The notes under the pieces are model-generated. The model worked only from the letters and a program-made list of their open reading frames with translations, did not search any database and was not told where the DNA came from. Shown piece by piece: positions 19,456 to 37,223 of a DNA stretch of 64,000 bases. The stretch's first letter is position 1. Every line of letters starts with the position of its first letter. A program made the position numbers and the translations under genes. The DNA lies in assembly GCA_022822745.1 (NCBI GenBank), contig JAJEAO010000077.1:5143-69142 (forward strand). Direction: 5' to 3'. Source of the stretch: Acidobacteriota bacterium (GTDB lineage Bacteria; Acidobacteriota; Vicinamibacteria; Marinacidobacterales; Marinacidobacteraceae).

Positions 19456-21498
<2,043 letters not shown>

Positions 21499-21501
<3 letters not shown>

Positions 21502-21789
21502 GGAGCGCGATAGGGAGCGCCGGGCTCCTATGGAGCGCCACTCTCCTATGGAGCGCCGCTCTCCTATGGAGCGCCGCTCTCCAGAGCGGCAATTCCCGAC
21601 ACGGACCCGGCCGGCGCGCTCGCCGGCTCGCCGGGCTCCTATGGAGCGCCACTCTCCTGGGGAGCGCCACTCTCCTATGGAGCGCCGCTCTCCAGAGCGG
21701 CAAATCTCGACCCCAGCCGGGCTCCATTGCGGTGCCGGTCTGGAGACCGGCCAGTTCTCCTGGTGGGGGCCTCCATAGAGGGACGCTCC
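21499..21789. repeat. Array of about 18-bp units carrying the palindrome GGAGCGCCGCTCC, arranged as two 74-bp blocks
   Basis: Blocks 21519-21592 and 21630-21703 are near-identical, 111 bp apart. Each holds three CTCCTATGGAGCGCCRCT units and ends in GCCGCTCT-CC-AGAGCGGC. Partial units (tagggagcgc twice) sit at 21499-21520. There is an inverted partial copy (ctccatagagggacgctcc) at 21771-21789 and a CCGGTCT-GG-AGACCGG hairpin at 21735-21750. Confidence 0.85.
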
Positions 21790-21837
21790 GCGCCGTGCCG
21801 GTTCTCGCGGTAGCGGCCCCGCCCGGCACAGGGCCGA

Positions 21838-24800
21838 ATGGGCTGGTACTTTCGTGGCTCCCCGTTCGTGGGAGCGCACAAGACCTTGCCGCCCGGCCCT
21901 CCCGACCACGACGCTGCCCGAGCCAGGAGCCGCGATGAGCCGCCGCTCCCGCCCTGCCTCTCGTTCGACCTCGAGGTGGGTGAGAAGGACGGAGGAATCC
22001 ACGCCGTAGGCGCGATCCGCTCGGATACCAGGAAGTCCTTCGAGCACTACGGCGCCCGCGACATGCGGAGGGCCCTCCTGCGACTTGATGAGTTGGCGAA
22101 CGGGGCGGAGTTCGTTCTCGGCCACAACATCATCAAGCACGACCTGCCGCTCCTGAAGAAGGCCGCGCCGAACCTCCGGCTGCTCCGCTTGCCCGCCCTG
22201 GACACGCTGCGGCTCAGTCCCCTCGCGTTCCCCCGGAATCCGTACCACCGCCTGGTCAAGCACTACAAGGACGGAGGCTTCCGAACCACGACCCGGAACA
22301 ACCCGAAGCACGATGCCAGGCTCGCGCTCGATCTGTTCCGCGAGGAGCGGGAGGCGCTGTCCGCGCAGGATTCCCATCGGCTCACCGCCTGGCACTGGCT
22401 GGCCGCGACGGAACCAGGCCAGGGCGCCCGGGGAATGGACCGCTTGTTCCACGATCTCCGCGGGCAGCCTCGGCCGTCGCGGCGCGAAGCGCAGGAAGCG
22501 GTCCGATTCTGCCTCGATCGCGACGGCGCGTGTCAGACCGCCGGGGAGGAGATCGTCGAGCGAGTCGACGGCCAGGGATGGCCGCTCGCCTACGCGCTCG
22601 CGTGGCTCTCGGTCGCTGGGGGGAACTCCGTCATGCCGCCGTGGGTGCGACGCGCGTTCCCGGAGGCGCCGCGTCTGATACGGAGGCTGTGCGACGAGAG
22701 GTGCGCTGACGCCGACTGCTGGTGGTGTCGGGAACGTCTCGATCCCGGCGAGGAACTGACGCGGTGGTTCGGCTTCGAGACCTTTCGCCCCGAACCCGCA
22801 ATGGAGGATGGCCGCCCGATGCAGGGCGCGATCGTCGAAGCCGCCATGAAGCGCCGACACCTTCTCGGGATCCTCCCCACCGGGGCCGGCAAGTCGGTCT
22901 GCTACCAGGTTCCCGCGCTGTCGCGTTACCAGCGGACAGGCGCCCTGACGGTCGTCATCTCGCCGCTGGTTGCACTCATGGCGGATCAGGTGGCTGGCCT
23001 GGAAAAGCGCGGGATCACCGGCTGCGTGACGGTGAACAGCCTCCTGTCCCTGCCGGAGCGCAGGGAAGTGCTGAACCGGATCCGGCTCGGCGACGCTGGA
23101 ATCGTGCTCATCGCTCCCGAGCAACTTCGCTCGCCGACGGTTCGCAGGGCTCTCGCCCAGCGCGAGATCGGCGGCTGGGTGCTCGACGAAGCCCATTGCC
23201 TGTCCTGGTGGGGTCACGACTTCCGCCCGGACTACCTCTACATCGGCCGCTTCATCCGCGAGCGGGCAAAGGAGGACGGGAGTGCGATTCCCCCGGTGAT
23301 GTGTCTCACGGCGACCGCGAAGCCGGACGTGAGGGACGACATCGCCCGCCACTTTCGCAAGAAAGTCGGGATCGAACTGCTCGTTTTCGACGGCGGCGCC
23401 GAGCGCAGGAACCTCAAGTTCGATGTTCGTGAAACGACCCGGTCGCAGAAGAATCGGCATGTCCTCGAATCCCTCGAGACACACCTCGATCCCGACACCC
23501 GAGATGGAGCCATCGTTTACTGCTCCACCAGGCGGAGGAGCGAGAGCGTCGCTGAATTCCTGAGAGAAGGCGGCTTCAAAGCGGCTCACTACCACGCGGG
23601 TATGAAGCCCGAGACCCGGAAGGAAGTCCAGGAGGACTTCATCCGCGGCGATCTCCGCGCGATCGCAGCGACGAACGCGTTCGGGATGGGGATCGACAAG
23701 CCGGATGTGCGCCTCGTGCTCCACGCCGATGCTCCGGGATCGCTCGAGAACTACTTGCAGGAGGCCGGGCGGGCCGGCCGTGACGGCGACCCGGCGCGAT
23801 GTGTCCTGCTCTACTCGCCGGACGACATCGAGCGGCAGTTCGGGCTGTCGGCGCGCTCGCGGCTCGCTCACTACGAGATCGTCGCAATCCTGAAGGCGCT
23901 GCGCTGCTTGGATCGTCGGAATCGGAGGCACGCGTCCAATGGAGATGTCGTGGTCACGTCGGGCGAGATCCTGCACGCCGACGCCGAAAGTGGATTCGAG
24001 CGGGACAGCGCCACCGACGACACCCGCACTCGAATGGCCGTCGCCTGGCTGGAAGAGGCTCATTTCCTCCAGCGCAACGAGAACGCCATCCGGGTCTTCC
24101 CGTCATCGCTCCGGGTTCTATCGCTTGAGAGGGCGGAAGCGAAGCTGAAGGCTGCCAGGGGACTTTCCGAATCGGACCGCGAGCGGCTGCTGTGTGTCAC
24201 CGGGGCCATTCTCGGAGCCGGTGCTGACGAAGGCATCACGACCGACGAATTGATGGGAAAGTGCGATCTGTCACCCGAACAGGTGACGCACACCCTCTCG
24301 AGACTCCACGGATTCGGCATCACGACGGCGAAGACGGCGATCACGGCCTACGTTCATCGCGCTGTCCCTGATTCGTCGGCTCGGCGACTCGAGGAGGCCC
24401 GGAACCTCGAAACCGCCCTGATCGCACATCTTCGCGAGGCAGCCCCGGACCTGACCGTGGGCGAGAGCTCTCGGCTGGATCTTCGGATCGCCGCGCAGCG
24501 ACTCCACGACGATGGAGCAACAGGGGCGCATCCAGCGCGTCTCTGGCGGATCGTCCGAAGCATTCGCTACGACGGACGCGGCGAGAAGCCGGATGCCGTG
24601 GGCAGTTGGGCGGCGCGGAAACTGGGTCCCTGGGCTGCGCGGATCACGCTGCGAAGGGACTGGGGAGACCTGAAGGCTCTCGCCGCGAATCGGCAGAGCA
24701 TCGCCCGGAGTCTGTTGACGCATCTGCTGGAACGGTTGCCGGAGGGCGCGCGGGGCAAGGATCTCCTCGCCGAGACGACACTGGAGGCGCTGGGTGGAGT

Positions 24801-27108
24801 GGTTCACAGCGACCTGTTCGCGAGTTTCGCCATGAACGCTGAGGAACTCACGCATCGAGCCATCCTCTGGCTCCACGAGCAGGACGTGATTCGCCTGCAC
24901 AAGGGGCTCGCGATCTTCCGCCCGGCGATGAGGATCCGGATGCAGTCGCGGAGGCGCCGGCAGGGCTACACGAAACGTGATTTCGAGCCCCTTCGATTCC
25001 ACTATCAGCGCCAGATCCTCCAGGTCCACGTGATGAAGGAGTTCGCCGAACGGGGCTCGAAGGCCGTGTCAGAGGCGCTCGCGCTGGCCACGGACTACTT
25101 CTCGATGGAAGAGAAGAAGTTCCTCGACCGCTGGATGCCGGGGCGGGAACAGGAGGTGCGCATTCAGACGACGCCGGAGTCGAAGCGGCGCATCGTCGAA
25201 GAGCTGCGGAACCCCGAGCAGGAAGCGATCGTTGCCGATGACCGGGACGACACCAACGTGCTCGTTCTGGCCGGCCCGGGCTCGGGGAAGACCCGCGTCC
25301 TGGTCCACCGCATCGCCTACCTGGTTCGGGTCCGGCGGGAGGATCCCGGAGGCATCGTGGCGTTGAGCTACAACCGCCATGCCGCGGCTCAGATCCGTCG
25401 CCGGCTTCTCGATCTCGTCGGTGACGATGCCCGGCGGGTGACAGTGCTCACGTGCCACGCGCTTGCGATGCGTCTCCTCGGGAGGACGTTCGCGGACCGC
25501 AAGGAACGGCTCGACGACGGCGCGTTTGCCAACCTGTTGCGCGAGGCGACGGCTCTCCTCGAAGGCAAGGATCTACCCCCGGAGGATCAGACGGAGGCGG
25601 CGGCGCGCCGGGAGCGACTTCTCGCGGGATTTCGATGGATCTTCGTGGACGAGTACCAGGACATCGGACCCGGGGAGTACGACTTGATCTCGGCGCTCGC
25701 CGGGCACACGCGCCAGGACGGCGACGAAAGGCTCAACTTGTTCGCGGTTGGCGATGACGACCAGAACATCTACTCGTTCAAGGGCGCCTCGGTGCGCTTC
25801 ATCCGTCGCTTCAACGAGGACTACGGGCCGAACGTTGCCTGCCTGACGCAGAACTACCGGTCCACGCGGCAGATCATCGAGGCTTCCAACGTTCTGATCT
25901 CGGCGGCGAAGGCGCGGATGAAGGGGTCGAAGCACGAGATCCGGATCAACACGGCTCGGCGGAGCGAGCCCCCGGGAGGCCGCTGGACGACTCTCGATCC
26001 GATGGCTCGCGGGAGGGGGCAGATCCTCCCGGCCGGGCGCGATTCTGCAGAGCAGGCCGTCGCGGTCGTGGAGGAACTGCGGCGGCTCGCCTCGCTCGAT
26101 CCGGACTGGGACTGGTCGCGCTGCGCCGTGGTGTCGCGGAAGAGGGAGCTTCTCGATCCTGTCCGCGCCGTCTGTGAGCCCGCTGGCATCCCGGTCCAGA
26201 TGGGCGACGAGAAGATGCCGCCTTTCTGGCGGTTACGGGAAACGCGGGAGTTTGTCGGCTGGCTCCGATCCGGAGAGTCGCGGGTCGTCGAGCCCGACGA
26301 GCTCAGCCAGTGGCTGGACGAAAGACCCTCCAATCCTTGGTGGGATCTCTTGCGGCAGGCTGTCGAGCAACACCACGAAGAGGCCGGGGCTGCCTCGCAC
26401 CCGGTAGGGCCCTTCGTCGAATGGCTGGCGGAGTGGGGGCACGAGGTGCGACGCCGCCAGCGGGGCCTCCTCCTGACGACGGCGCACCGCGCCAAAGGGC
26501 TGGAGTTCGACCACGTGGCCGTGCTCGATGGAGACTGGGACGGGGCATGGGACAACGAGGATGCCGACGCCCCACGACGGCTCTACTACGTTGCCATGAC
26601 CCGCGCCCGGGAGACGCTCCTCCTGGCCCGAATGGAGTCCCCGACCGCGCTGCAGGAGGATCTGCTGAAGCTGCCCAGCGTCCTGCGCCGCGACGCGAGG
26701 CCGAGGAAACCTGCCCCCTCCGCAGCTCACCTCCGCACGGTCCGACTCGGGATGAAGGATGTGGACCTGGGTTTCGCCGGGTGCTTCCGTGCTGGTCACC
26801 CGATCCACCGCCGAATCCGCGCCCTGAACCCGGGCGACGTACTGACCATCCGCGTCAACTTCCCGGGCTGGGATCTGCTCAACGGCTCCAGTCACCTGGT
26901 AGGCCGCCTCGCCATGAGGTTCCGACCCCCGAACGGCATGCGCTGCCGATCCGTCACGGTTGCGGCGATCGTCGCCTGGAGCCGCGCCGACACGAAGCCC
27001 AAGTACCTCGAGCGCTGCGACTGCGACGAATGGGAAGTCGTCCTCCCGGAACTCGTCTTCGAACCCGATGGCACTCCCGTGCTTCGCGTCCCGCATGGAG
27101 CCTCCTGA
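21838..27108 (+). CDS. Giant fusion protein: DEDD-type 3'-5' exonuclease + RecQ-family helicase + UvrD/PcrA-family helicase
   Basis: N-terminus: SFDLEVGE, GHNIIKHDLPLL and LDTLRLS (DnaQ-like exo motifs). RecQ core: ILPTGAGKSVCYQVPAL, VISPLVALMADQV, VLDEAHCLSWWGHDFRPDY, CLTATA, ATNAFGMGIDKPDVRLVLH and QEAGRAGRDG. UvrD core: VLAGPGSGKTRVLVHRIAYL, IFVDEYQDIGPGEY, FAVGDDDQNIYSFKGA, LTQNYRSTRQII, LLTTAHRAKGLEFDHV and YYVAMTRARETLLL. The start is uncertain (ATG 21838, GTG 21868 or TTG 21886). Confidence 0.85.
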   Translation: MGWYFRGSPFVGAHKTLPPGPPDHDAARARSRDEPPLPPCLSFDLEVGEKDGGIHAVGAIRSDTRKSFEHYGARDMRRALLRLDELANGAEFVLGHNIIKHDLPLLKKAAPNLRLLRLPALDTLRLSPLAFPRNPYHRLVKHYKDGGFRTTTRNNPKHDARLALDLFREEREALSAQDSHRLTAWHWLAATEPGQGARGMDRLFHDLRGQPRPSRREAQEAVRFCLDRDGACQTAGEEIVERVDGQGWPLAYALAWLSVAGGNSVMPPWVRRAFPEAPRLIRRLCDERCADADCWWCRERLDPGEELTRWFGFETFRPEPAMEDGRPMQGAIVEAAMKRRHLLGILPTGAGKSVCYQVPALSRYQRTGALTVVISPLVALMADQVAGLEKRGITGCVTVNSLLSLPERREVLNRIRLGDAGIVLIAPEQLRSPTVRRALAQREIGGWVLDEAHCLSWWGHDFRPDYLYIGRFIRERAKEDGSAIPPVMCLTATAKPDVRDDIARHFRKKVGIELLVFDGGAERRNLKFDVRETTRSQKNRHVLESLETHLDPDTRDGAIVYCSTRRRSESVAEFLREGGFKAAHYHAGMKPETRKEVQEDFIRGDLRAIAATNAFGMGIDKPDVRLVLHADAPGSLENYLQEAGRAGRDGDPARCVLLYSPDDIERQFGLSARSRLAHYEIVAILKALRCLDRRNRRHASNGDVVVTSGEILHADAESGFERDSATDDTRTRMAVAWLEEAHFLQRNENAIRVFPSSLRVLSLERAEAKLKAARGLSESDRERLLCVTGAILGAGADEGITTDELMGKCDLSPEQVTHTLSRLHGFGITTAKTAITAYVHRAVPDSSARRLEEARNLETALIAHLREAAPDLTVGESSRLDLRIAAQRLHDDGATGAHPARLWRIVRSIRYDGRGEKPDAVGSWAARKLGPWAARITLRRDWGDLKALAANRQSIARSLLTHLLERLPEGARGKDLLAETTLEALGGVVHSDLFASFAMNAEELTHRAILWLHEQDVIRLHKGLAIFRPAMRIRMQSRRRRQGYTKRDFEPLRFHYQRQILQVHVMKEFAERGSKAVSEALALATDYFSMEEKKFLDRWMPGREQEVRIQTTPESKRRIVEELRNPEQEAIVADDRDDTNVLVLAGPGSGKTRVLVHRIAYLVRVRREDPGGIVALSYNRHAAAQIRRRLLDLVGDDARRVTVLTCHALAMRLLGRTFADRKERLDDGAFANLLREATALLEGKDLPPEDQTEAAARRERLLAGFRWIFVDEYQDIGPGEYDLISALAGHTRQDGDERLNLFAVGDDDQNIYSFKGASVRFIRRFNEDYGPNVACLTQNYRSTRQIIEASNVLISAAKARMKGSKHEIRINTARRSEPPGGRWTTLDPMARGRGQILPAGRDSAEQAVAVVEELRRLASLDPDWDWSRCAVVSRKRELLDPVRAVCEPAGIPVQMGDEKMPPFWRLRETREFVGWLRSGESRVVEPDELSQWLDERPSNPWWDLLRQAVEQHHEEAGAASHPVGPFVEWLAEWGHEVRRRQRGLLLTTAHRAKGLEFDHVAVLDGDWDGAWDNEDADAPRRLYYVAMTRARETLLLARMESPTALQEDLLKLPSVLRRDARPRKPAPSAAHLRTVRLGMKDVDLGFAGCFRAGHPIHRRIRALNPGDVLTIRVNFPGWDLLNGSSHLVGRLAMRFRPPNGMRCRSVTVAAIVAWSRADTKPKYLERCDCDEWEVVLPELVFEPDGTPVLRVPHGAS

Positions 27109-27229
27109 CGGCCAGCGTCTCTTGCAACACTGGCCCACATGGCATGTCCCTGCGTGGCGGAGATTGGATACCTAGACTCGATGGCCGCGTGCGGTCTGAT
27201 AGCCTCATCCGGTCGGCCCGACGGAGTGT

Positions 27230-27496
27230 GTGCCGACCATGCGTGGCGTGACCATGGCGCTGTCAATCAGACTGTTTTCCGGGCCTTCTGACCCCCTGCG
27301 TCCCCTGCCTCCGTTTGTCGAGCAGCAGTTTGTCGAGCAGCAGCGTCTCGTCGCCGAGGTCTATGAACTCATGGCTCTCTGTGACCGGCTGGAGGCTGGT
27401 CTTGATGCCACGGACGGCACCCGGAATCGCCTTCTGCATGACACGCTGACGCCATCCGCGTACGAAGCTGCTACTGTCGGGGCGGTTGGGGCATGA
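27230..27496 (+). pseudogene. hsdS: Remnant of a type I restriction-modification specificity subunit (C-terminal conserved helix only)
   Basis: PLPPFVEQQ..RLVAEVYELMALCDRLEAGL matches the conserved HsdS C-terminal coiled-coil region (PPLxEQxxIVxxvdxLmalcDxLEa). There is no target-recognition domain upstream. It contains a perfect 15-bp tandem duplication. Confidence 0.6.
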
Positions 27497-28641
27497 TCCG
27501 CGTCTCGGTGCGCCCCGAGATGCTGCGCTGGGCTTGTGAGCGCGCGGGCCACGATGTGGCCCACTTCTCTGAGCGGGTGCCGCAACTGTCGGCCTGGATC
27601 CGGCGAGAGCGAAGGCCGACGCTGAAACAACTGGAGAAGATGGCGAGAGTCACCCACACTCCGCTCGGCTACCTGTTCCTCCGGGAGCCTCCCGACGAAC
27701 GCCTCCCCGTGGCTGACTACCGCACGGTGTCGGGCACCGCTGCAGCCAAGCCGGGTCCCGACCTGCTGGACACGCTGTACGCGATGCTGCGCCGCCAGGC
27801 CTGGTTGCGGGAGTCGCGCGTGGAGCACGAGGCGGAGCCACGGGCGTTCGTGGCGAGCGCCCGTCTCGCCGACGAGCCCGATGCGGCGGGGCGCGAGATG
27901 CGGCGGTCACTCGGCCTGGACGACGGATGGGCGGCCCGAGTCCGAACTTGGCAGGACGCTGTGGGTGAGTTGCGCCGTTCGATCGAGAACCTGGGCGTGA
28001 TGGCGGTGATCAACGGCGTGGTGGGGAACAACACCCATCGTCGACTGAGAGTGGAGGAGTTCCGCGGCTTCGCGCTCCCGGATCCCTACGCGCCGCTGAT
28101 TTTCGTGAACGGCGCCGATGCGAAATCGGCGCAGATGTTCACGCTTGCCCACGAACTGGCGCACATCTGGCTCGGCAGGGATGGGGTCTCCGGCTTCGAT
28201 GCCCTGCTTCCACACGGTACCGAGGTCGAGCACTGGTGCAATCGCGCGGCGGCTGAACTGCTCGCGCCCGCCCGGGAAGTCACGGCCCGGTGGATGGAGG
28301 TGAGACGGTCGCCGAGTCCGTTCGATTCGCTGGCGCGGTCGTTCAAGGTGAGCCCGGTCGTGGCCGCCCGTCGCGCTCTCGACCTCTCGCTCATCGGCCG
28401 CGGCGCCTTCTTCGCCTTCTACGAGCGGTACATGGAGCGGGAGGGCGAGAGCGGGACCAAGCCGACCGGGGGCGATTTCTTCAACAACCAGAACACGCGT
28501 GTTGGCGAGTTGTTCGCGACCCATGTTCTGCGCGCTGCGTTGGAGGGCCGAATCGGCTTCAAGGATGCCTATGACCTGACCGGGCTCCGCGGAGGAACGT
28601 TCCAGAAGTACGCCAGACGCTTGGGTTGGGATCTTCCATGA
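27493..28641 (+). CDS. ImmA/IrrE-family metallopeptidase with an N-terminal HTH-like region
   Basis: The ATG overlaps the hsdS-stub stop (ATGA). FTLAHELAHIWLG (HExxH) and WCNRAAAELLAP are present. The N-terminus resembles an XRE-like domain. Confidence 0.8.
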   Translation: MIRVSVRPEMLRWACERAGHDVAHFSERVPQLSAWIRRERRPTLKQLEKMARVTHTPLGYLFLREPPDERLPVADYRTVSGTAAAKPGPDLLDTLYAMLRRQAWLRESRVEHEAEPRAFVASARLADEPDAAGREMRRSLGLDDGWAARVRTWQDAVGELRRSIENLGVMAVINGVVGNNTHRRLRVEEFRGFALPDPYAPLIFVNGADAKSAQMFTLAHELAHIWLGRDGVSGFDALLPHGTEVEHWCNRAAAELLAPAREVTARWMEVRRSPSPFDSLARSFKVSPVVAARRALDLSLIGRGAFFAFYERYMEREGESGTKPTGGDFFNNQNTRVGELFATHVLRAALEGRIGFKDAYDLTGLRGGTFQKYARRLGWDLP

Positions 28642-29162
28642 GCGCGGATCGGGTCTTTCTCGTGGATTCGGATGTATTCATCACGGCAAAGAACCTGTAC
28701 TACGCGTTCGACATCTGCCCCGGGTTCTGGAAGAGCCTGCTCCATCATCACCAAGCCGGCCGCGTCTACAGCATAGACCGTGTGCGCGGCGAGCTCCTCG
28801 CGGGCAGCAAGACCGAGGATCTGGTGCGCTGGGTGAGGAGCGAGGTTCCGCAGGAGTTTTTCCTCCCCGTGGACACTGCTTCCGTGGCGAGCTCCTACAC
28901 GGACATCATGATGTGGGTCCAGCGCCACCCTCGGTACTTCGACTACGCGAAGGCAAAGTTCGCGACGGGCGCGGACGGCTGGCTGGTCGCGTACGCACGG
29001 GTCCACGGCGCAGTCGTCGTGACCAACGAGCAGAGCGCCCCGGAGTCCAGGAGAGAGGTGAAGCTTCCCGATCTATGCGCTCGTTTCCGAGTCCGACACG
29101 AGAACACGTTCGCCATGCTTCGCGCGCTGAAAGTGCAGTTCGATCAGACCGGAGACCACTGA
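28638..29162 (+). CDS. DUF4411-family (PIN-like) protein, the usual partner of ImmA/IrrE
   Basis: The ATG at 28638 overlaps the upstream stop (ATGA). VFLVDSDVFITAKNLYYAFDICPGFWKSLL, VYSIDRVRGEL, DGWLVAYARVHGAVVVTNE. Confidence 0.75.
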   Translation: MSADRVFLVDSDVFITAKNLYYAFDICPGFWKSLLHHHQAGRVYSIDRVRGELLAGSKTEDLVRWVRSEVPQEFFLPVDTASVASSYTDIMMWVQRHPRYFDYAKAKFATGADGWLVAYARVHGAVVVTNEQSAPESRREVKLPDLCARFRVRHENTFAMLRALKVQFDQTGDH

Positions 29163-29680
29163 TCGTCCCCGCGGAACCCGTGGGCGGTCGCATCCCGATC
29201 CGTCTGTCTCCGCAGCGCTCGGAGCATGCACTGACCTGGTTCAGACCCGGCCGCGGCACCTTCGAGCCCGCTGATGTGCTCTAGCCCGCGACGGTGCCGG
29301 CATCCCGCCGGTGGCAGTCATGCGTCCGGCGACGCCCGGAGCGTGCGGTCAAGCCTCAGGTTGTCGCGATCGGTTCAGGTCCGCCGTACCCACTGAGAGG
29401 TCGAAGATGAGGCTGGACACGGCGCGCCAACTAGGATAGGACATGGGATGAGATGGGAGCCGTGATCACGATGGAGGCTGTTGCCGGAGCTTGGCCGGGG
29501 AGGCAAGCGTGATTCCGGGCCGCGCCAGTTCCGTTGGCGTGAGGTCGCTCGTCGCCAATGTGCTCCTCGGCAAGGCCAAGGAGGAGGGCGACGCCTGCTG
29601 TGGAGACGACGCCGCCGCCGAGCCATCAACTCCGATGCGGCGCGGGGACTGGTTTCTCGGGGTCTTCCGAGAGCGCAGCG

Positions 29681-31501
29681 TCAAGAGGTTGCGGTACCTT
29701 GCAATGCTCCGTCCCTTGCCTTCACACCGGAGTATGAGATACCAAGGCTAGACGCGGATCCCGCACCTTGATCTGACCCGCGATCCGATATCCCGCCTAG
29801 AGCCTTGCTGAGTAGGTCTAGTTCCGATTTCAACCGGGAACAGAGCTCGTCGAAATGACCCCGGAAACCGTCATCCCTCCGCTGAATCTGCTGGAGAAAC
29901 TCATGCGCTCGTCTCCCCTTTGTGTGTGACATCACTGTCCTCGCACGTTGAAGCTCTCGGAGCCCACTGAGTTCAGAGCCCTGGGCCTCCGGTATAGTTT
30001 CCTGTACAAGTCGCCTCAGCAGCATCAGGCTCCCTTCTGCGGGCTTCGGCTTCATGCCACATTCGGTCGCCGTGTGACGCAGCCACTTCAGATCGAACCC
30101 CTCAATCAAGACGCTGGCTAGGGCACGACACTTCTCGCTCCATTCCTCGCGACTCTGCGTGAACATGGGCCGGATATCGGCGAGAGCTGATTCGTCTCGG
30201 CATATCCACCATGGAGTGCTCATCTTCTTCCATTCATGGAGCTTCCGCGTCACTGCGGACACGGCTGCATCTTGAGACTTCAAGTCCGTCCACTTGCCGG
30301 CGAAATCCATGGCGATGATGTCAGGTGAGAGCTGGGCCTTAGGGGCTTCGTTATAGCCCCTCCAGTGCATCTGTTCGCTATAGGGGAGTTGCCGCAAGTA
30401 GCGAAGGTAGGCATGGACCTGACCCGCCTCGTTGCGACCGATGGCTTGGAGTTCCCAGATGTCTTTGCATGTGATGGTTCGGCCGTTGATGACATACTTT
30501 CCGGAATCACTCTCATACTTGCGCAGAACCTCTGGTCGGAAGAAGGCCGGTGACATTTCATATGGCAAGCGGGGCCTCTTTTCTGCGTAGTTCGTAGTAG
30601 CGCTAGGATCCAGAGAAACTCTGACAACTTGTTCATGGCGCCAGTCGTGGGTCAAGAAGGACAGCGGTGGCCCTGACTCTCGAGGAAGGAGGCCGGAGTC
30701 CAGCGACGCAATGATGGCGGCTCGTGATTGGGAGAGGGGGAGAATCTGAACACCGCGCACATAGCCAGCATAGCCCGGATCCTCGAACCGACGGAATGTC
30801 AGAGTATCGTCTTTCTGTATGGGAGGTGGATCATGTCGTGGCCACATGGCAAACGTGTTCGGATCATACAGGTTGAAGTCAAACAGGCGTACTAGGGTCA
30901 GGTTGGCTGCGGCGAGGTACTGCTCAAGAGGATAGCGATAGAACGACACCACGGAGGGAGTTGACGATTCTCGATTGAGCGTTGCAGAGACGATGTCGAC
31001 GAGGTCGCCGTTTTCGTCCCTGAGCAGGAACCGACCACCGGGAGCGACGCAGGGAATCTCGGAGACGTGAGCGTACTCCTGGTGAACCTCGATCTGCAGT
31101 TCTCCTGATCCCGTGTTGGATATGGTGGTCCTGCGGTAAAGGAGAGAGTGTGCGCGAGACAGAGCGGCGGGGCGCCAGGGGCCGTCAGCGACGTCAACAT
31201 GAGAGTCCTGTGGAGCGCCGGAATAGACGTAGCCGATTCGCGTGGATGGAAGGCCGCCGTCCCAATCGAGCAGATCCGTGTCCCGGACTGATTGGAGGTC
31301 GAGGGTCGGCACGGCCACGGTGTGAATGAAGATGTGGGGTGACGCCACGTCGATGAGGAGTTGATCCTCGCGGGCATTCTGTCGAAGGAGACGAAGGTGA
31401 TCGACACCCTTGATCCAATGGGCGTGCTTTCCGGCACTGCTCGGAGGGGTATGAACGGCTTGGACTCGTCGGATGAGGTTCTTGTGTTCAAAGCGCGGCA
31501 T
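29681..31501 (-). CDS. Hypothetical protein, 606 aa, no family recognised
   Basis: Long ORF with varied, non-repetitive amino-acid composition in a visibly AT-richer segment. ATG at 31501 (MPRFEHKNLI). The ORF-track start at 31531 is also possible. The C-terminal helical region carries R-x4-H (RTVMSH). Confidence 0.65.
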   Translation of the reverse strand: MPRFEHKNLIRRVQAVHTPPSSAGKHAHWIKGVDHLRLLRQNAREDQLLIDVASPHIFIHTVAVPTLDLQSVRDTDLLDWDGGLPSTRIGYVYSGAPQDSHVDVADGPWRPAALSRAHSLLYRRTTISNTGSGELQIEVHQEYAHVSEIPCVAPGGRFLLRDENGDLVDIVSATLNRESSTPSVVSFYRYPLEQYLAAANLTLVRLFDFNLYDPNTFAMWPRHDPPPIQKDDTLTFRRFEDPGYAGYVRGVQILPLSQSRAAIIASLDSGLLPRESGPPLSFLTHDWRHEQVVRVSLDPSATTNYAEKRPRLPYEMSPAFFRPEVLRKYESDSGKYVINGRTITCKDIWELQAIGRNEAGQVHAYLRYLRQLPYSEQMHWRGYNEAPKAQLSPDIIAMDFAGKWTDLKSQDAAVSAVTRKLHEWKKMSTPWWICRDESALADIRPMFTQSREEWSEKCRALASVLIEGFDLKWLRHTATECGMKPKPAEGSLMLLRRLVQETIPEAQGSELSGLRELQRARTVMSHTKGRRAHEFLQQIQRRDDGFRGHFDELCSRLKSELDLLSKALGGISDRGSDQGAGSASSLGISYSGVKARDGALQGTATS

Positions 31502-31601
31502 GGGGAGCCTCCTGAGTGGCCACGGTGGCATAGAGCATCATATGTACTGGGAACGAAACTATGATACCATGGACTGCGCTCAGGGCAAGCGAAGGGGGCC
31601 G

Positions 31602-32732
31602 ATGGTGGAGATTGCGGCGAATCTGGCGCGGCTGCGCCTGGATCGCCGACTGACCCAGGCCCGCCTGGCTGAGCGGGCTGGACTGTCCCGGGTCGCCGTC
31701 GGCAAGATCGAGCGCGGCGCCGTCGTCCCGCGCGCCGGGACGCTGGTCGCGCTGGCGCGGGCTCTGGACGTGCCGGTTCGGGATCTGATCGCCCGCGTCC
31801 GGCCGCTGAGGAGCGTCCGGTTCCGAGCGCGTTCTCGACTGTACGGGCGGGAGCAGATTCTCGCCGAGGTCTCACGATGGCTGGATAACTATGGTGGGCT
31901 GGAGGACGCGCTCGGGAGGCGCCTCGAGTTCAGCCTCCGGGATCTCGTGACTCCGGGTTCTGTTGTCTCGCCTCCCGATGTCGCCCGCAGGGCCCGGGAG
32001 CGAGCGGCCCTGGATCGGGTCGCGCCGGTCGGGAACATCTGTCGGTTCCTGGAGGAGGCGGGAGTCAAGGTGCTCCTGCTCGACAAGAAGCGGGACTCCT
32101 TCTTCGGGTTGAGCGTCGGGCCGGAGGATCGGGGACCGGCAGTCGTAGTGAACGTCTGGGATCGGATCTCGGTCGAGCGCTGGATCTTCACCGCGGCCCA
32201 CGAGATGGGGCACCTGCTCCTGCATCCGATGGAGTTCGATCCCGAGGAGACCCGGCCCCCGAAGGCGACCGAGAAGGAGGCCGACAGTTTTGCCAGCCAT
32301 TTCCTGATGCCGGAACCCGCCTTCAAGCGGGAGTGGAACGCGACTCGTGGCACCTCGTTGCTCTGGCGCGTCCTCACGGTGAAGCGAATTTTCCGCGTGA
32401 GCTACCGGACGGTTCTGTTCCGTCTATACGAGACAGAGCGCGCCGGCGCCGGAGTCTGGGCCGCCTTCCAGACACAGCATCGGCGGTACCTCGGGCGAAC
32501 CCTGAAGAAGGCGGACGAGCCGAACCCACTCGGGAGGAGTGAGTTCTCCTGGAGTGCCCCTCGGGCGGGCGAACCGGCCGCCTTGTTGGAGCATGATTTC
32601 CGTGGATTCCGCCTCGTGCGGCTCGTCCGCCAAGCTGTCGAGCAGGGCCGGATTTCGCTCGGGCGCGCGGCCGAGATTCTGGGTCTCCCGTTGGAGGAAA
32701 TGCGGGTGCGCGCACGTGAGTGGGCCGAGTAG
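31602..32732 (+). CDS. XRE-family HTH fused to an ImmA/IrrE (M78) metallopeptidase domain
   Basis: ATG at 31602 preceded by GAAGGGGG. RLTQARLAERAGLSRVAVGKIERG (HTH_3), FTAAHEMGHLLLHP (HExxH) and EKEADSFASHFLMP. Confidence 0.85.
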   Translation: MVEIAANLARLRLDRRLTQARLAERAGLSRVAVGKIERGAVVPRAGTLVALARALDVPVRDLIARVRPLRSVRFRARSRLYGREQILAEVSRWLDNYGGLEDALGRRLEFSLRDLVTPGSVVSPPDVARRARERAALDRVAPVGNICRFLEEAGVKVLLLDKKRDSFFGLSVGPEDRGPAVVVNVWDRISVERWIFTAAHEMGHLLLHPMEFDPEETRPPKATEKEADSFASHFLMPEPAFKREWNATRGTSLLWRVLTVKRIFRVSYRTVLFRLYETERAGAGVWAAFQTQHRRYLGRTLKKADEPNPLGRSEFSWSAPRAGEPAALLEHDFRGFRLVRLVRQAVEQGRISLGRAAEILGLPLEEMRVRAREWAE

Positions 32733-32791
32733 ATCCTGCGCCGCAAGCACGACTCTGACGGACTGAATTCGGGGCTTGACGGGGCCGTCCC

Positions 32792-33976
32792 TCAGTCGGT
32801 CTTCGCCCAGATCGTGAGGCGGAGCTCCTCGCCGAAGAGCTCGTACGTGGGGCGGCGACCCGAGTGCGCTTCGCTCGCTTCGAGAATTCGGCGTACGCCT
32901 TCGCCGCGGGATTCGAGGAAGACGCGTGCCGTCCGGTGGCTGTGGATGCGCGAGAGGAAGTTCACGAGAAGCTGATTGCGGGTGAAGACACGGTAGGGCA
33001 TGTCGTCGAGCGTCATCGTGTTGGGTAGCTTGCCCGGGCTGTAGAGTTCGAGCCGGTCGCGGAAGAGGAACAGGCGAATCTTGGAGCCGTAGATCGAATA
33101 GTCGCGGTGCGCTACGGCGTTCACCACGGCTTCGGCCACGACATCGGGATCGAACGCCTTTTCGCCGGCACGGGACCGGATAAAGGCGACGGCGGCATCG
33201 ATCTGTTCGGGCACCGGGCCGCGAACTCGCTGTTCGTGGAGCAGGTCGTCCGAGGAGAGTCGCGTTCCCTCGTAGGAAGCCGCCTCGATCCATGCGCTTC
33301 GCAGGTGTTCCGTCGGCCGCTGTCCGAAGGTCAGGAGACCCGCCACCGTGGGGCGGTCCACGTGCTCCTCGTCACGAAGGATGACCCGAGCGTTGCGAAG
33401 CAGATCGAGCCAGGGGATGGTCGGTGAACGTCCGAAGAACGACTCCAGTCGGTTCCAGTCGAGGTCGTTGACGCTGGCTGCGAACACGGGCTGCTCGTCG
33501 AAGACGTAGCCTCGGCCGCGATCCTGGAAGAGTCGCGCCAGTTCGGGTGGGTCGAGGTCCCGCTTCGTCGAGCCCACGCGGATCGTGTAGCGGCCTCCGG
33601 CCGTGCGATGGACGAAGTTGCCCCGCGGGATCTCCGCCAGCAGGACGTGCCGCTCCTGTCCGGTCTCATCCGGCAGGAGTTCCCGACGCAGCGTCGGGCG
33701 AATGGGCGGGACGCTGTTGTTCGACGCGATGTTCACGAGCCAGGTCTCGACGAGGCCGACCCGTTCGGCCGGAATGCCCACGACCTCGCCTGAGTCGGCG
33801 ATGCCGAGCAGGAGGACTCCTCCGACGCCGTTGGCGAAGGCCACCATTTCCGCCGCCAGATCGTCACGGTTGGGTGAGATCACGCTTCGCTTGCCGAAGC
33901 GAATCTCCTTGAATTCCGTGCGGCTGTCCTCCCCAGCGCGGCACTGCCGGAGGATCGGTTCGCGAGCGTTCATCAT
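32792..33976 (-). CDS. AlbA_2 (Schlafen-like) DNA-binding domain + HATPase_c_4-like ATP-binding protein
   Basis: GEDSRTEFKE, LAAEMVAFANGVGGVLLLGI.DSGEVVGI, then AVVNAVAHRDYS and LELYSPGKLPN. Confidence 0.75.
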   Translation of the reverse strand: MMNAREPILRQCRAGEDSRTEFKEIRFGKRSVISPNRDDLAAEMVAFANGVGGVLLLGIADSGEVVGIPAERVGLVETWLVNIASNNSVPPIRPTLRRELLPDETGQERHVLLAEIPRGNFVHRTAGGRYTIRVGSTKRDLDPPELARLFQDRGRGYVFDEQPVFAASVNDLDWNRLESFFGRSPTIPWLDLLRNARVILRDEEHVDRPTVAGLLTFGQRPTEHLRSAWIEAASYEGTRLSSDDLLHEQRVRGPVPEQIDAAVAFIRSRAGEKAFDPDVVAEAVVNAVAHRDYSIYGSKIRLFLFRDRLELYSPGKLPNTMTLDDMPYRVFTRNQLLVNFLSRIHSHRTARVFLESRGEGVRRILEASEAHSGRRPTYELFGEELRLTIWAKTD

Positions 33977-34124
33977 GTGGTCAGCAGGTCTCCCGACCGC
34001 GTGTCTTGGCCGGGCTCACGGATGGTAGTCGGTCTCGGGGCGCAGGCAGGGTTCTGGGCCTGATGCCGCCGCTCTCAGGAACAACCGCGCTCGCGTGGCC
34101 ATTTGGCACCGACCGGAGGGGGAC

Positions 34125-37100: not shown

Positions 37101-37223
37101 GGTCCCGGCCAGGGCGACCACGATGCCGGCGGCCGAGAGCGCTGCCGCGCCCACCATCCGGAACATCGATCTGCGCCTGGGGATCGCGGCCTGACCGGTT
37201 CCGGGGAACCGGAGGCGAGTCAT
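34125..37223 (-). CDS. TonB-dependent-receptor-like outer-membrane beta-barrel with an N-terminal CarboxypepD_reg domain
   Basis: The ATG at 37223 overlaps the upstream stop (ATGA). An alternative ATG is at 37166. Signal peptide ...ALAGTTFAQA, then GVIRGEVLDPLGNPAPGAVVVITN, NGRNFLDLALLTPG, INGQRGIFNNFIVDGADFNNPFFG, and C-terminal ...LGFTVRF. Confidence 0.85.
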   Translation of the reverse strand: MTRLRFPGTGQAAIPRRRSMFRMVGAAALSAAGIVVALAGTTFAQAGATTGVIRGEVLDPLGNPAPGAVVVITNRDTDLVTTVECSPSGVFVRSLLPPGIYDILAIGEGSFGTGRVEGAILRIGEVLDLRFDLPLVTSEAVTVFGELPSVVDRTDATRSQRIREEVVDAVPSNGRNFLDLALLTPGAAISQGPDGDELNINGQRGIFNNFIVDGADFNNPFFGEQRGGQRPAFTFNRDAIAELVIVNQGASAEFGRSSGGFIHVVTKSGTNDLGGSAHLFGQWDGVAARYPSERGGGKPEFHRIQTGATLGGPLARDRLFFFAAWDQQAAGERKQQDRQVHNPARLETLDRFLQERWPGLFEDEFGPIHRTDDARALLVKLDFQPSERHQASLKVNLSRAEQANGSFDVDAWGASANGIEQVRSHAVNGSLRSLLSNGFSNELRVQWAREDRPRLYEGPVMPGAALPPGPPSLAALGGLPFPDITMDFDDGFRIGLPFFLPIDPSFDDRLQIVENLSAPLGNHLFKLGLEYNRTRAEQQFIGLAAGRYIFDSVDGFIGFATHGSGYVTCSDGSAGTAGACPEGTRITGPVLLYLQSATVPGVPPQELGRQSFETTEVGLFVQDTWHPKDRLSLDLGLRWDGSWHPDVFVEPEDAFFAPYLDDPAFPSSGRIPDDLDNFQPRLGLAWDIAGDGSTVVRAAAGAYVARIPMLVFAQHRSTNGAFQQTLFRSSADTHLGPVPPLDRRIAGDAPPFLPDIQVADRDLELPRTWSFHVGLDRDLGHGVAASASYVHARTDQLFRFVNRNDPAFGSPFGLGTHPDGGGINTLTVAESSARSRYHALTLGVRGWSTLRNRPLSFEAHYTLGFDRSDDDNERDPFTLRYADASNLAPEFGWSDRDRRHQLSAYLLLELPLGLQWNNVIRILSASPVSEQCANPGQRANQPSDRICPDGSILERNTLRRDNAFFTWDLRLSRRIPLPSGAAIEPVLEIFNLTNSDNFLDTATGSLLFNFDGSLRSGLGDTRRAQLGFTVRF

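What the first reader, a model, noticed from the sequence alone, without database searches (positions are those of the whole stretch)
21499..33976. Defence-type accessory island between hppA and a TonB-receptor operon
Every callable gene in this 12.5-kb stretch belongs to a nucleic-acid surveillance or immunity class. These are the exonuclease-RecQ-UvrD giant, an hsdS stub, two ImmA/IrrE peptidases, DUF4411, an unknown 606-aa protein and an AlbA_2/Schlafen-like ATPase. Both flanks are ordinary energy, transport and envelope genes. Hand-counted 60-nt lines inside 30.4-30.9 kb give about 50-58% GC, against about 60-78% in lines sampled outside. The left border is a dense palindromic repeat array. 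I see no integrase, transposase or tRNA, so the acquisition route is unclear.
Basis: partly seen in the sequence, partly recalled or inferred. Interest (0 to 1): 0.7.

Follow-up and report, generated by a model that had tools for sequence, protein, structure and literature searches.

The report
Decaying defence-gene hotspot beside a giant helicase
This stretch of an uncultured acidobacterial chromosome is a swap-prone slot that holds toxin-antitoxin and restriction leftovers plus two widespread proteins of unknown function; it is an ordinary kind of defence/accessory hotspot, not one freshly imported 12.5-kb island.

Summary

- The 1756-aa exonuclease-RecQ-UvrD gene sits at the same place, right after hppA, in all four nearest relatives.
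- The truly variable part is about 7 kb (27069-34118), between the last 13 codons of that gene and the end of the TonB-type receptor gene.
- Five related genomes show four different cargo states there, all starting at the same left junction.

The window's cargo is mosaic and partly decayed.
- A dead hsdS 3' stub is fused to an intact ImmA/IrrE + DUF4411 (PIN-like) cassette. This is a Rosmer-like toxin-antitoxin pair that sits inside a type I R-M operon on an Acetobacter plasmid.
- A 606-aa gene has clearly foreign composition (GC3 0.64 against 0.89).
- A RosmerTA-antitoxin-like gene has lost its usual PIN-like partner.
- An AlbA_2/HATPase_c_4 gene completes the set.

PADLOC HMMs gave antitoxin, domain-level and stub-level hits only. 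No partner or effector gene needed to complete a named system was found.

The 606-aa protein and the giant helicase belong to large, cross-phylum, plasmid-borne families with no Pfam or solved-structure match for the former. They are candidate defence genes, but this is unproven.

The parts
19456..21501 (+). Left flank: hppA, the membrane pyrophosphatase. It is conserved in all relatives.
   Evidence: Pfam H_PPase, E 6e-268. Homologues at 88-96% identity occur in Acidobacteriota MAGs.
21500..21837 (.). REP-like palindromic repeat array. Two ~111-nt blocks lie at 21518-21611 and 21629-21722. Each has three 18-nt CTCCTATGGAGCGCCRCT units and the palindrome GCCGCTCTCCAGAGCGGC. A third palindrome lies at 21734-21751.
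   Evidence: Repeats are described. Folding gives z = -4.3. There is no Rfam match. The array is absent from this spot in L087 and L092. The same repeats lie between the AlbA_2 remnant and the receptor gene in L091.
21838..27108 (+). Giant 1756-aa protein with three catalytic modules: a DEDD-type 3'-5' exonuclease (~40-180), a RecQ-like SF2 helicase (~320-690) and a UvrD-like SF1 helicase (~1120-1600). There is also a Cys cluster at 289-297 and a conserved C-terminal domain. It is conserved within the clade and forms the left anchor of the variable slot.
   Evidence: Domain hits are. Catalytic residues are invariant across 12 homologues. The gene occupies the same locus in L087, L091, L092 and L183. 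The family has >7000 hits at ~60% identity across phyla and occurs on plasmids.
27069..27108 (+). Recurrent left junction. Homology with all four relatives stops at 27068/27069, 13 codons before the giant's stop codon.
   Evidence: blastn; alignment A5.
27230..27496 (+). Dead 3' remnant of a type I R-M specificity gene (hsdS). Its stop codon overlaps the start of the next gene. It contains a perfect 15-nt tandem duplication at 27313-27342.
   Evidence: PADLOC Specificity_I, E 5e-7. GC3 is 0.663. An Acetobacter plasmid shows the intact arrangement hsdM-hsdS-[ImmA-DUF4411]-Abi-hsdR with the same hsdS/ImmA overlap.
27493..28641 (+). HTH + M78 Zn-peptidase of the ImmA/IrrE type (382 aa, HELAH at residue 220). 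It is the predicted antitoxin/regulator of the cassette.
   Evidence: Pfam Peptidase_M78, E 3e-12, and a weak HTH_3 hit. PADLOC capP and RmrA hits. Plasmid homologues at 40-43% identity are followed by DUF4411 in 3 of 3 cases.
28638..29162 (+). DUF4411 PIN-like protein (174 aa). It is the predicted nuclease toxin, and its start overlaps the upstream gene.
   Evidence: Pfam DUF4411, E 7e-43. It was classified as a PIN-like candidate toxin of HTH/DUF955/PIN systems (PMC5499597).
29681..31501 (-). 606-aa protein of unknown function and unmatched fold. It is the strongest composition outlier and appears to be a stand-alone accessory gene.
   Evidence: No family hit. GC is 0.575 and GC3 is 0.636. 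The family comprises 2071 clusters. Sixty-two loci show no conserved neighbour. One representative is fused to TIR. A homologue lies next to CBASS genes on a P. aeruginosa megaplasmid. Models have pLDDT 79 and 92.6 and find no PDB or BFVD match.
31502..31601 (.). Divergent AT-richer intergenic region between the 606-aa gene and the second M78 gene. It has a promoter-like site on the minus strand (31588-31561) and an imperfect inverted repeat, CATCATA...TATGATA.
   Evidence: These are consensus matches only, not evidence of function.
31602..32732 (+). RmrA-like HTH_3 + M78 protein (376 aa from the ATG at 31602, which follows GAAGGGGG; the longest ORF starts at 31473). HEMGH lies at residue 200. 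It is an orphan: the usual downstream ~170-aa PIN-like partner is missing.
   Evidence: PADLOC RmrA, E 2e-32. Plasmid homologues are followed by a ~170-aa 'MLLIVDANVLIDY...' protein in 3 of 3 cases. No trace of that partner is found in the window or the sisters. A remnant of its last 58 codons persists in L087, L091 and L092.
32792..33976 (-). SLFN_AlbA_2 + HATPase_c_4 protein (394 aa, COG2865-type). It is shared with L087 and L092, reduced to a 52-codon remnant in L091, and absent in L183.
34125..37235 (-). Right flank: a TonB-type outer-membrane barrel gene with native composition. It is the first gene of an operon conserved in the clade. The start is approximate, taken from the 1023-1036-aa calls in the sister genomes.
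   Evidence: Pfam OMP_b-brl_4, CarboxypepD_reg and Plug. GC3 is 0.907. It is 90-91% identical at the protein level to the sisters. L183 homology resumes at 34118.

Best explanation
The region is a chromosomal variable hotspot in a small clade of uncultured Acidobacteriota.

Anchors and slot.
- The conserved anchors are the giant exonuclease-RecQ-UvrD gene, which follows hppA in every clade member, and the TonB-type receptor operon.
- The roughly 7-kb slot between them (window 27069-34118) exchanges cargo. The likely route is homologous recombination through the anchors, followed by erosion through deletion.

What the window's slot holds: leftovers of at least three separate acquisitions.
- (a) A fragment of a type I R-M locus. 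Only the hsdS 3' end survives, but the embedded two-gene cassette is intact: an HTH/ImmA-IrrE peptidase plus the DUF4411 PIN-like nuclease.
- (b) A recently arrived, low-GC, stand-alone 606-aa gene of unknown function.
- (c) An RmrA-like HTH/M78 gene that has lost its PIN-like toxin, together with an AlbA_2/HATPase_c_4 gene.

Likely mechanism of the one complete module (inferred by analogy with RosmerTA, not shown).
- The HTH-peptidase represses and/or neutralises the PIN-like nuclease.
- Infection or another trigger removes that control.
- The nuclease then stops growth, which amounts to abortive infection or addiction.

The giant helicase and the 606-aa protein.
- Both are single-gene accessory functions of unknown role.
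- The giant has all catalytic motifs for 3'-5' exonuclease activity and two 3'-5' helicase motors. I infer it unwinds and degrades DNA ends or forks, either of invading DNA or in repair.
For: Shown:
- The giant occupies the same locus in L087, L091, L092 and L183.
- All four share an identical left junction at window 27068/27069.
- Five genomes show four cargo states.
  - Window: the full set.
  - L087 and L092: M78_2 remnant plus AlbA_2.
  - L091: M78_2 remnant, AlbA_2 remnant and REP-like repeats.
  - L183: ABC_membrane_3 plus an NmrA fragment.
- Five more distant relatives (hppA 88-91% identical) have hppA followed by DjlA, PALP and Tricorn instead.
- Composition is graded. Flanks have GC3 0.89, most island genes 0.80-0.82 and the 606-aa gene 0.64.
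- The ImmA-DUF4411 pair is conserved in 3 of 3 plasmid contexts. One of these is inside a type I R-M operon with the same hsdS/ImmA overlap.
- M78_2 homologues carry a ~170-aa PIN-like partner in 3 of 3 cases, and that partner is missing here.
- PADLOC gives RmrA E 2e-32 for M78_2 and no effector hit.

From the literature:
- HTH/DUF955/PIN systems are predicted toxin-antitoxin-like systems (PMC5499597).
- RosmerTA pairs a Zn-peptidase antitoxin with a variable toxin, including PIN-like partners.
Against: - No gene here has been tested experimentally.
- PADLOC HMMs gave antitoxin, domain-level and stub-level hits only. No partner or effector gene needed to complete a named system was found, so 'defence' rests on context.
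- L183's cargo is not defence-related, so the slot is a general variable site.
- Direction of events is inferred from five genomes without a phylogeny. The M78_2 remnant favours deletion in the sister genomes. However, L183 and the sisters share a few bases (CCCGAA) just after the junction that the window lacks. The window's cargo could therefore be the replacement.
- Relatives are MAG or metagenome contigs, so mis-assembly at repeats cannot be excluded.
- No recombinase or att-like site was found.
Confidence: 0.75

Rival explanations
1. One reading: the whole 21.5-34.0 kb span, giant helicase included, is one horizontally acquired defence island in which every gene has an immune role.
For: - The whole span has lower GC and GC3 than the flanks.
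- The giant is absent after hppA in five more distant relatives.
- The giant family is plasmid-borne and spread across phyla.
- PADLOC gives defence-type domain hits.
Against: - The giant is fixed at this locus in all four nearest relatives while the cargo to its right differs.
- Composition is heterogeneous inside the span, with GC3 from 0.64 to 0.82. This argues for several events.
- The same rearrangement also brought the native-composition receptor operon next to hppA.
- No complete known system is present.
Confidence: 0.12
2. The cargo is the eroded remnant of an integrated plasmid or ICE segment, and the toxin-antitoxin-type genes served element maintenance (addiction) rather than anti-phage defence.
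For: - Homologues of the ImmA-DUF4411 cassette occur on plasmids, many of them conjugative or mobilizable. They sit next to relaxase, T4SS and other toxin-antitoxin genes.
- Homologues of M78_2, the 606-aa protein and the giant also occur on plasmids.
- Signs of decay are present: the hsdS stub and the orphan antitoxin.
Against: - There is no integrase, relaxase, replication gene, tRNA or att-like direct repeat in or around the span.
- Different cargo sharing one junction fits flank-mediated exchange better than site-specific integration.
- Addiction and defence roles are not mutually exclusive.
Confidence: 0.2
3. The giant exonuclease-RecQ-UvrD protein is a DNA repair or recombination enzyme of the host rather than an immune protein, and it merely borders the hotspot.
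For: - It is conserved at the locus across the clade.
- The family is unusually well conserved: about 60% identity across phyla and 78% mean column identity, with every catalytic motif invariant.
- It has no conserved partner gene.
- PGAP names it a RecQ family helicase.
- Established knowledge: the exonuclease + RecQ architecture recalls the eukaryotic WRN repair protein.
Against: - It diverges much faster than its neighbours. It is 74% identical at the protein level to the sisters, against 96% for hppA and 90% for the receptor.
- Two of five copies are disrupted: a frameshift in L092 and two ORFs in L183.
- GC3 is below the core genes.
- The distribution is patchy, with plasmid copies sitting among toxin-antitoxin and CRISPR genes.
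Confidence: 0.35
4. The 606-aa protein is the toxin or effector controlled by the divergently transcribed RmrA-like gene, forming a non-canonical Rosmer-type pair.
For: - The two genes are head-to-head with a ~100-nt AT-richer spacer. The spacer carries a promoter-like site and an imperfect inverted repeat.
- RmrA partners are known to be highly variable.
- The 606-aa family has an invariant Rx4H motif in a helical C-terminal domain.
Against: - None of 62 other loci of the family has an M78 neighbour. Neighbours are heterogeneous.
- M78_2 homologues pair with a co-directional ~170-aa PIN-like protein.
- The two genes differ strongly in composition: GC3 0.64 against 0.80.
- The fold search of the C-terminal domain found no HEPN match.
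Confidence: 0.1

Closest known systems
Defence islands and variable defence hotspots between conserved core genes (concept of Makarova et al. 2011; from my own knowledge)
   Same: - A cluster of toxin-antitoxin and restriction-type genes sits between housekeeping genes.
- Content differs between close relatives.
- Composition is atypical.
- Decayed fragments lie beside intact modules.
   Different: - PADLOC HMMs found no complete recognised system.
- The nearest relative carries non-defence cargo in the same slot.
- There are no mobility genes.
- The left anchor is itself an accessory-type giant helicase.
RosmerTA (RmrT/RmrA) and the HTH-DUF955(M78)-PIN three-component toxin-antitoxin-like systems (Millman 2022; Ernits 2023, PMC10440598; Matelska 2017, PMC5499597)
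   Same: - An HTH + Zn-peptidase (HExxH) gene directly overlaps a small PIN-like gene (27493-29162).
- The second M78 gene hits PADLOC RmrA at E 2e-32.
   Different: - DUF4411 matches no PADLOC RmrT model.
- The strongly RmrA-like gene has no toxin next to it.
- No toxicity or defence data exist.
Type I restriction-modification loci with embedded ImmA/IrrE-DUF4411 cassettes (for example Acetobacter vaccinii plasmid NZ_CP043507.1)
   Same: The hsdS 3' end overlaps the ImmA/IrrE start, and DUF4411 follows.
   Different: hsdM, hsdR and most of hsdS are gone, so there is no R-M function.
WRN-type exonuclease-RecQ helicases, PsyrT/DpdF (RecQ-like) and GajB/UvrD defence helicases
   Same: - The giant has a DEDD exonuclease fused to a RecQ-type motor, as in WRN.
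- It shows domain-level similarity to DpdF/PsyrT (E 1e-88 to 1e-117 over ~350 residues).
- It shows domain-level similarity to GajB (E 7e-52).
   Different: - A second, UvrD-type motor lies on the same 1756-aa chain.
- No PsyrA, Dpd or GajA partner genes are present.
- Matches cover only part of each PADLOC profile.
- I found no described system with this architecture.
COG2865-type AlbA_2 (Schlafen core) + HATPase_c_4 proteins
   Same: The two-domain architecture is the same. From memory, such genes are common in defence islands and next to R-M genes.
   Different: The role is uncharacterised. The only PADLOC hits are partial matches to Argonaute-associated fusion proteins.

Membership tests
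Defence island / variable hotspot | Content differs between close relatives while the flanks are conserved | tested here: met
   Five genomes show four cargo states, all with the same left junction at 27068/27069.
Defence island / variable hotspot | Contains recognised defence systems | tested here: inconclusive
   PADLOC hits were limited to RmrA (E 2e-32), capP-like, the Specificity_I stub and helicase domain-level matches. No effector or partner models matched, so no complete system was found.
Defence island / variable hotspot | Atypical base composition or codon usage | tested here: met
   GC3 is 0.64-0.82 against 0.890 +/- 0.038 for 29 flanking genes.
Genomic island acquired by site-specific integration | Integrase or transposase, a tRNA or att site, and flanking direct repeats | tested here: not met
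   No tRNA. No integrase or transposase domains. No convincing flanking direct repeats.
RosmerTA | Antitoxin with an HTH and an M78 Zn-peptidase domain (HExxH) | tested here: met
   M78_2 hits RmrA at E 2e-32, has HTH_3 at E 2e-12 and carries HEMGH. M78_1 hits RmrA at E 6e-10 and carries HELAH.
RosmerTA | Adjacent co-directional toxin gene (RmrT) | tested here: inconclusive
   M78_1 is followed by an overlapping DUF4411 PIN-like gene, but it hits no PADLOC RmrT model. M78_2 has no partner, and the ~170-aa PIN-like partner of its homologues is absent.
RosmerTA | Toxicity neutralised by the antitoxin, and phage protection | not testable with these tools
   This needs expression and plaque assays.
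Type I restriction-modification | hsdM, hsdS and hsdR all present | tested here: not met
   Only an 88-codon hsdS 3' remnant with GC3 0.663 is present. No methylase or R subunit is in the span.
PsyrTA / Dpd / Gabija (for the giant helicase) | Full-length match plus the partner genes (PsyrA; DpdA-K; GajA) | tested here: not met
   Hits cover only the RecQ-like or UvrD-like cores. No partner is present in the window or in homologue contexts.
HEPN RNase (C-terminal domain of the 606-aa protein) | Rx4-6H motif in an all-helical domain with the HEPN fold | tested here: inconclusive
   R521-x4-H526 is invariant or nearly so in 43 sequences. The domain model has pLDDT 92.6 and is all-helical, but Foldseek against PDB gives nothing below E 0.7. 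No Pfam hit.

The most novel reading that the evidence does not exclude
The 606-aa protein may represent a new single-gene immune family with a fold not yet seen in solved structures.
- The family has about 2000 clusters at 50% identity, spread across many phyla.
- No Pfam model matches, and there is no PDB or BFVD structural match.
- Neighbourhoods are highly variable.
- It is occasionally fused to, or adjacent to, TIR domains.
- A homologue sits beside CBASS genes on a Pseudomonas megaplasmid.
- It may act through its invariant Rx4H site.

In parallel, the exonuclease-RecQ-UvrD giant may be an undescribed one-protein nuclease-helicase system against invading DNA.
Probability: 0.3. Interest if true: 0.65.

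Novelty: new member of a known kind. Interest (0 to 1): 0.35.

Why it matters
As a locus it is a routine example of how accessory and defence genes accumulate, swap and decay at a fixed chromosomal slot. It is useful mainly as a clean five-genome illustration in a little-studied phylum.

Its practical value is as a pointer to two large uncharacterised families, both good candidates for experimental defence screens.
- One is the 606-aa protein with no recognisable fold.
- The other is the ~1750-aa exonuclease-RecQ-UvrD fusion.

It also documents an ImmA/IrrE-DUF4411 cassette travelling inside type I R-M operons.

Tried and rejected
- **Genome-contig scan with hppA.** The patterns were too conserved. 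Relatives were recovered instead through the protein search and exact look-ups.
- **Full-length model of the 606-aa protein against PDB and BFVD.** Nothing at E <= 1e-3.
- **HEPN idea for its C-terminal domain.** The Rx4H motif is real. A high-confidence domain model found only generic helical bundles, so the idea is kept only as a weak hypothesis.
- **Profile of the family against PDB sequences and Pfam on 43 members.** Nothing.
- **A conserved partner for the 606-aa gene.** None was found. The 176-aa neighbour seen in L082 and L084 is absent from the window.
- **606-aa + M78_2 as a pair.** Rejected as unlikely (see rivals).
- **Target-site duplications or long inverted repeats around the cargo.** Only short chance-level matches.
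- **Rfam on the whole window.** No family.
- **Simple inversion to explain why DjlA lies 36 kb from hppA.** The PALP, Tricorn and SSF genes of the relatives are not in the window. The rearrangement is more complex and was left unresolved.
- **Literature search for an exonuclease-RecQ-UvrD defence system.** Nothing relevant.
- **Literature search for AlbA_2/HATPase_c_4.** Nothing relevant.

Full report
**Source and gene map**

The window is part of a 243-kb metagenome scaffold, ENA ERZ23491076 scaffold_57. It comes from an uncultured member of the Acidobacteriota. The closest named hppA homologues, at 91% identity, are from 'Acidobacteria bacterium' MAGs.

The genome is about 70% GC. I therefore called genes by third-position GC and checked them against Pfam, PADLOC and NCBIfam.

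- hppA lies at 19456-21501.
- A 1756-aa protein lies at 21838-27108. It has a RecQ-type core at residues 326-650 and a UvrD-type core at 1125-1600. Its N-terminus gives a weak DEDD-exonuclease signal: DNA_pol_B_exo1, E 8e-4, with D44, E46, D102 and D159 invariant in the family.
- An 88-codon hsdS remnant lies at 27230-27496 (PADLOC E 5e-7). Its sequence reads 'LPPFVEQQ..RLVAEVYELMALCDRLEAGL'.
- An HTH/M78 gene lies at 27493-28641, overlapping a DUF4411 gene that ends at 29162.
- A 606-aa gene with no family hit lies on the minus strand at 29681-31501.
- A second HTH/M78 gene ends at 32732.
- An AlbA_2 + HATPase_c_4 gene lies at 32792-33976 on the minus strand.
- A TonB-type barrel gene follows from 34125.

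Both peptidases keep HExxH. There is no tRNA in the window. No integrase or transposase domain appears in any gene or leftover ORF.

**Composition**

The span has GC 0.652, against 0.698 and 0.709 on the two sides. The 500-bp minimum is 0.55, at 30.5 kb. Outside windows average 0.705 (sd 0.029, minimum 0.624).

Twenty-nine flanking genes have GC3 0.890 +/- 0.038.
- The giant, both M78 genes, DUF4411 and AlbA_2 have 0.80-0.82, about 2 sd low.
- The 606-aa gene has 0.636, which is 6.6 sd low.
- The hsdS stub has 0.663.
- The receptor gene is native at 0.907.

The deviation is real but graded, which already argues against a single acquisition.

**Left border**

The hppA-giant spacer (21500-21837) holds two ~111-nt blocks. 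Each has three 18-nt units, CTCCTATGGAGCGCCRCT, and the palindrome GCCGCTCTCCAGAGCGGC. A third palindrome follows.
- The spacer folds far better than shuffled sequence, z = -4.3.
- It matches no Rfam family.
- It is absent from this spacer in L087 and L092.
- In L091 the same repeats sit at the other end of the slot, between the AlbA_2 remnant and the receptor gene.

I read it as a REP- or MITE-like dispersed element. I could not test whether it is dispersed in the full genome.

**Synteny: the key result**

Four nearest relatives share the arrangement hppA, then giant, then cargo, then receptor operon:
- L087, whose hppA is 96% identical.
- L091.
- L092.
- L183, whose giant is 92% identical at the nucleotide level.

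In every one of them, homology with the window stops at 27068/27069, 13 codons before the giant's stop (alignment).

To the right of that junction the cargo differs:
- L087 and L092 have about 100 nt, then a remnant of the last 58 codons of the second M78 gene (window 32621-32743), then AlbA_2.
- L091 has the same M78 remnant, only the first 52 codons of AlbA_2, and the REP-like repeats.
- L183 has 1.7 kb of unrelated cargo, an ABC_membrane_3 protein and an NmrA fragment. Homology resumes at window 34118, the very end of the receptor gene.

Five more distant relatives (hppA 88-91% identical) instead have hppA followed by DjlA, PALP, Tricorn and SSF. Their DjlA matches window 57.8-58.6 kb in the opposite orientation. 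The other genes are not in the window.

Three conclusions follow:
- The giant helicase and the receptor operon came to lie beside hppA through a clade-specific rearrangement.
- The giant is fixed in the clade.
- The swappable slot is about 27069-34118.

Protein identity between the window and the three sisters is 96% for hppA, 90-91% for the receptor, 84-85% for AlbA_2 and only 74% for the giant. Two giant copies are disrupted: L092 has a frameshift and L183 is split into two ORFs.

**The cargo modules**

(a) hsdS stub with the ImmA/IrrE-DUF4411 cassette.
- Plasmid homologues of the first M78 protein (40-43% identical) are followed by an overlapping DUF4411 gene in 3 of 3 contexts inspected.
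- On an Acetobacter vaccinii plasmid the pair lies inside a type I R-M operon: hsdM-hsdS-[ImmA-DUF4411]-Abi-hsdR. There the hsdS stop overlaps the ImmA start, exactly as with the window's stub.
- The window segment 27.2-29.2 kb is therefore a fragment of such a locus.
- DUF4411 is a PIN-like domain. It was predicted to be the toxin of three-component HTH/DUF955/PIN systems (PMC5499597).
- RosmerTA is the experimentally shown case of a Zn-peptidase antitoxin with variable toxins, including PIN-like partners.

(b) The second M78 gene.
- It probably starts at 31602, behind GAAGGGGG.
- It is strongly RmrA-like (E 2e-32).
- Its plasmid homologues are followed in 3 of 3 cases by a ~170-aa PIN-like protein.
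- No trace of that partner exists in the window or the sisters.
- It is therefore an orphan antitoxin or regulator.

(c) AlbA_2 + HATPase_c_4 is a COG2865-type gene of unknown role.

(d) The 606-aa gene is treated next.

**The 606-aa family**
- It has at least 346 close hits in the 90%-clustered collection. It has 2071 clusters at 50% identity at E <= 1e-3, with a uniform length of ~570 aa.
- Members occur in Acidobacteriota, Spirochaetales, Chloroflexota and Truepera. Homologues lie on Pseudomonas, Rhodococcus and Streptomyces plasmids. None is in the phage collection.
- None of 43 members hits Pfam.
- A full-length AlphaFold model (pLDDT 79) finds nothing in PDB or BFVD at E <= 1e-3. Neither does a C-terminal domain model with pLDDT 92.6.
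- In 62 loci there is no conserved neighbour and no M78 neighbour. Pfam scans of 130 neighbours are heterogeneous. TIR_2 and SEC-C are the most recurrent at 3 each, alongside integrases, relaxases and YgjP.
- One representative is an N-terminal TIR fusion.
- On a P. aeruginosa megaplasmid the homologue sits beside SAVED, nucleotidyltransferase, ThiF and JAB genes, a CBASS-type set. In close relatives it sits next to an SNF2 + Eco57I-like pair and toxin-antitoxin genes.
- An invariant motif, LR-x2-Q-x2-R-[ST]-x3-H-x2-G, lies in the helical C-terminal domain and resembles the HEPN Rx4H signature. The fold search did not support HEPN.

I conclude it is a stand-alone accessory gene, recently acquired here. 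It is plausibly immune-related, but this is unproven.

**The giant family**
- More than 7000 hits were returned, typically 1700-1770 aa and about 60% identical across Alphaproteobacteria, Spirochaetes, Nitrospinae and Acidobacteriota. PGAP names them 'RecQ family ATP-dependent DNA helicase'.
- Twelve diverse members align with 78% mean column identity. All exonuclease, RecQ and UvrD motifs are invariant, as is a Cys cluster.
- Copies lie on plasmids and in chromosomal spots rich in toxin-antitoxin, transposase or CRISPR genes. They have no conserved partner.
- PADLOC hits (DpdF, PsyrT, GajB) cover only the motor cores.
- I found no paper describing this architecture.
- Mechanism is inferred only. 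Two 3'-5' motors plus a 3'-5' exonuclease suggest unwinding coupled to degradation of DNA ends or forks. Whether the target is invading DNA or damaged host DNA cannot be decided here.

**Verdict**

This is a variable, compositionally atypical slot rich in toxin-antitoxin and restriction-type genes. It is nested and mosaic, not one island, and its left 42% is a clade-conserved gene.

It is an ordinary kind of feature, a new member of a known kind. It contains one intact Rosmer-like cassette, several decayed pieces, and two large uncharacterised families that deserve experimental screening.

Noticed in passing
window 57826-58650 (and 21.5-57.8 kb as a whole): The DjlA/TerB-DnaJ gene directly follows hppA in five more distant relatives. 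In the window it lies 36 kb away in the opposite orientation. The PALP, Tricorn and SSF neighbours of those relatives are not in the window. This is a clade-specific rearrangement more complex than one inversion.
   Followed up: partly
L091 15776-15953: The REP-like palindromes and an 18-nt unit from the window's hppA-giant spacer occur in a sister genome at the opposite border of the slot. There they sit where AlbA_2 has been deleted. They might mark or mediate deletions.
   Followed up: partly
P0447 (representative of the 606-aa family): A 761-aa member carries an N-terminal TIR domain (TIR_2, E 1.5e-17) fused to the family. TIR genes are also neighbours in L157 and L142.
   Followed up: partly
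window 27313-27342: There is a perfect 15-nt tandem duplication (GTTTGTCGAGCAGCA x2) inside the dead hsdS remnant. It duplicates the 'FVEQQ' codons.
   Followed up: no
L092 14524-14536; L183 1377/1378: The giant helicase gene is interrupted in two of five clade members. L092 has a frameshift and L183 is split into 430-aa and 1318-aa ORFs. This may be pseudogenisation or assembly error.
   Followed up: no
window 22702-22728 (giant residues 289-297): An invariant Cys cluster (C289, C294, C297, with H301 nearly invariant) lies between the exonuclease and RecQ modules. It may be a zinc-binding element not covered by any Pfam hit.
   Followed up: no
L185 12145-13002; L088 14106-14819; L090 13702-14407: In the more distant relatives a PhdYeFM/PIN toxin-antitoxin pair is inserted at different positions just downstream of hppA. 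The neighbourhood of hppA attracts toxin-antitoxin genes in that clade too.
   Followed up: no
window 922-1391; 60847-61083: Long tandem repeats lie outside the finding. One has period 246 nt x 1.9 copies. Others have periods of 33 nt and 54 nt x 2.4-4.1 copies, with 79-90% matches. They are probably within coding sequence.
   Followed up: no
L087 4576-5649; L092 2467-3540: Two sister genomes carry an AAA_16 ATPase gene between DUF1761 and the Na/Ala symporter gene. The window has only a 92-aa ORF there, so this is a second small variable spot upstream of hppA.
   Followed up: no
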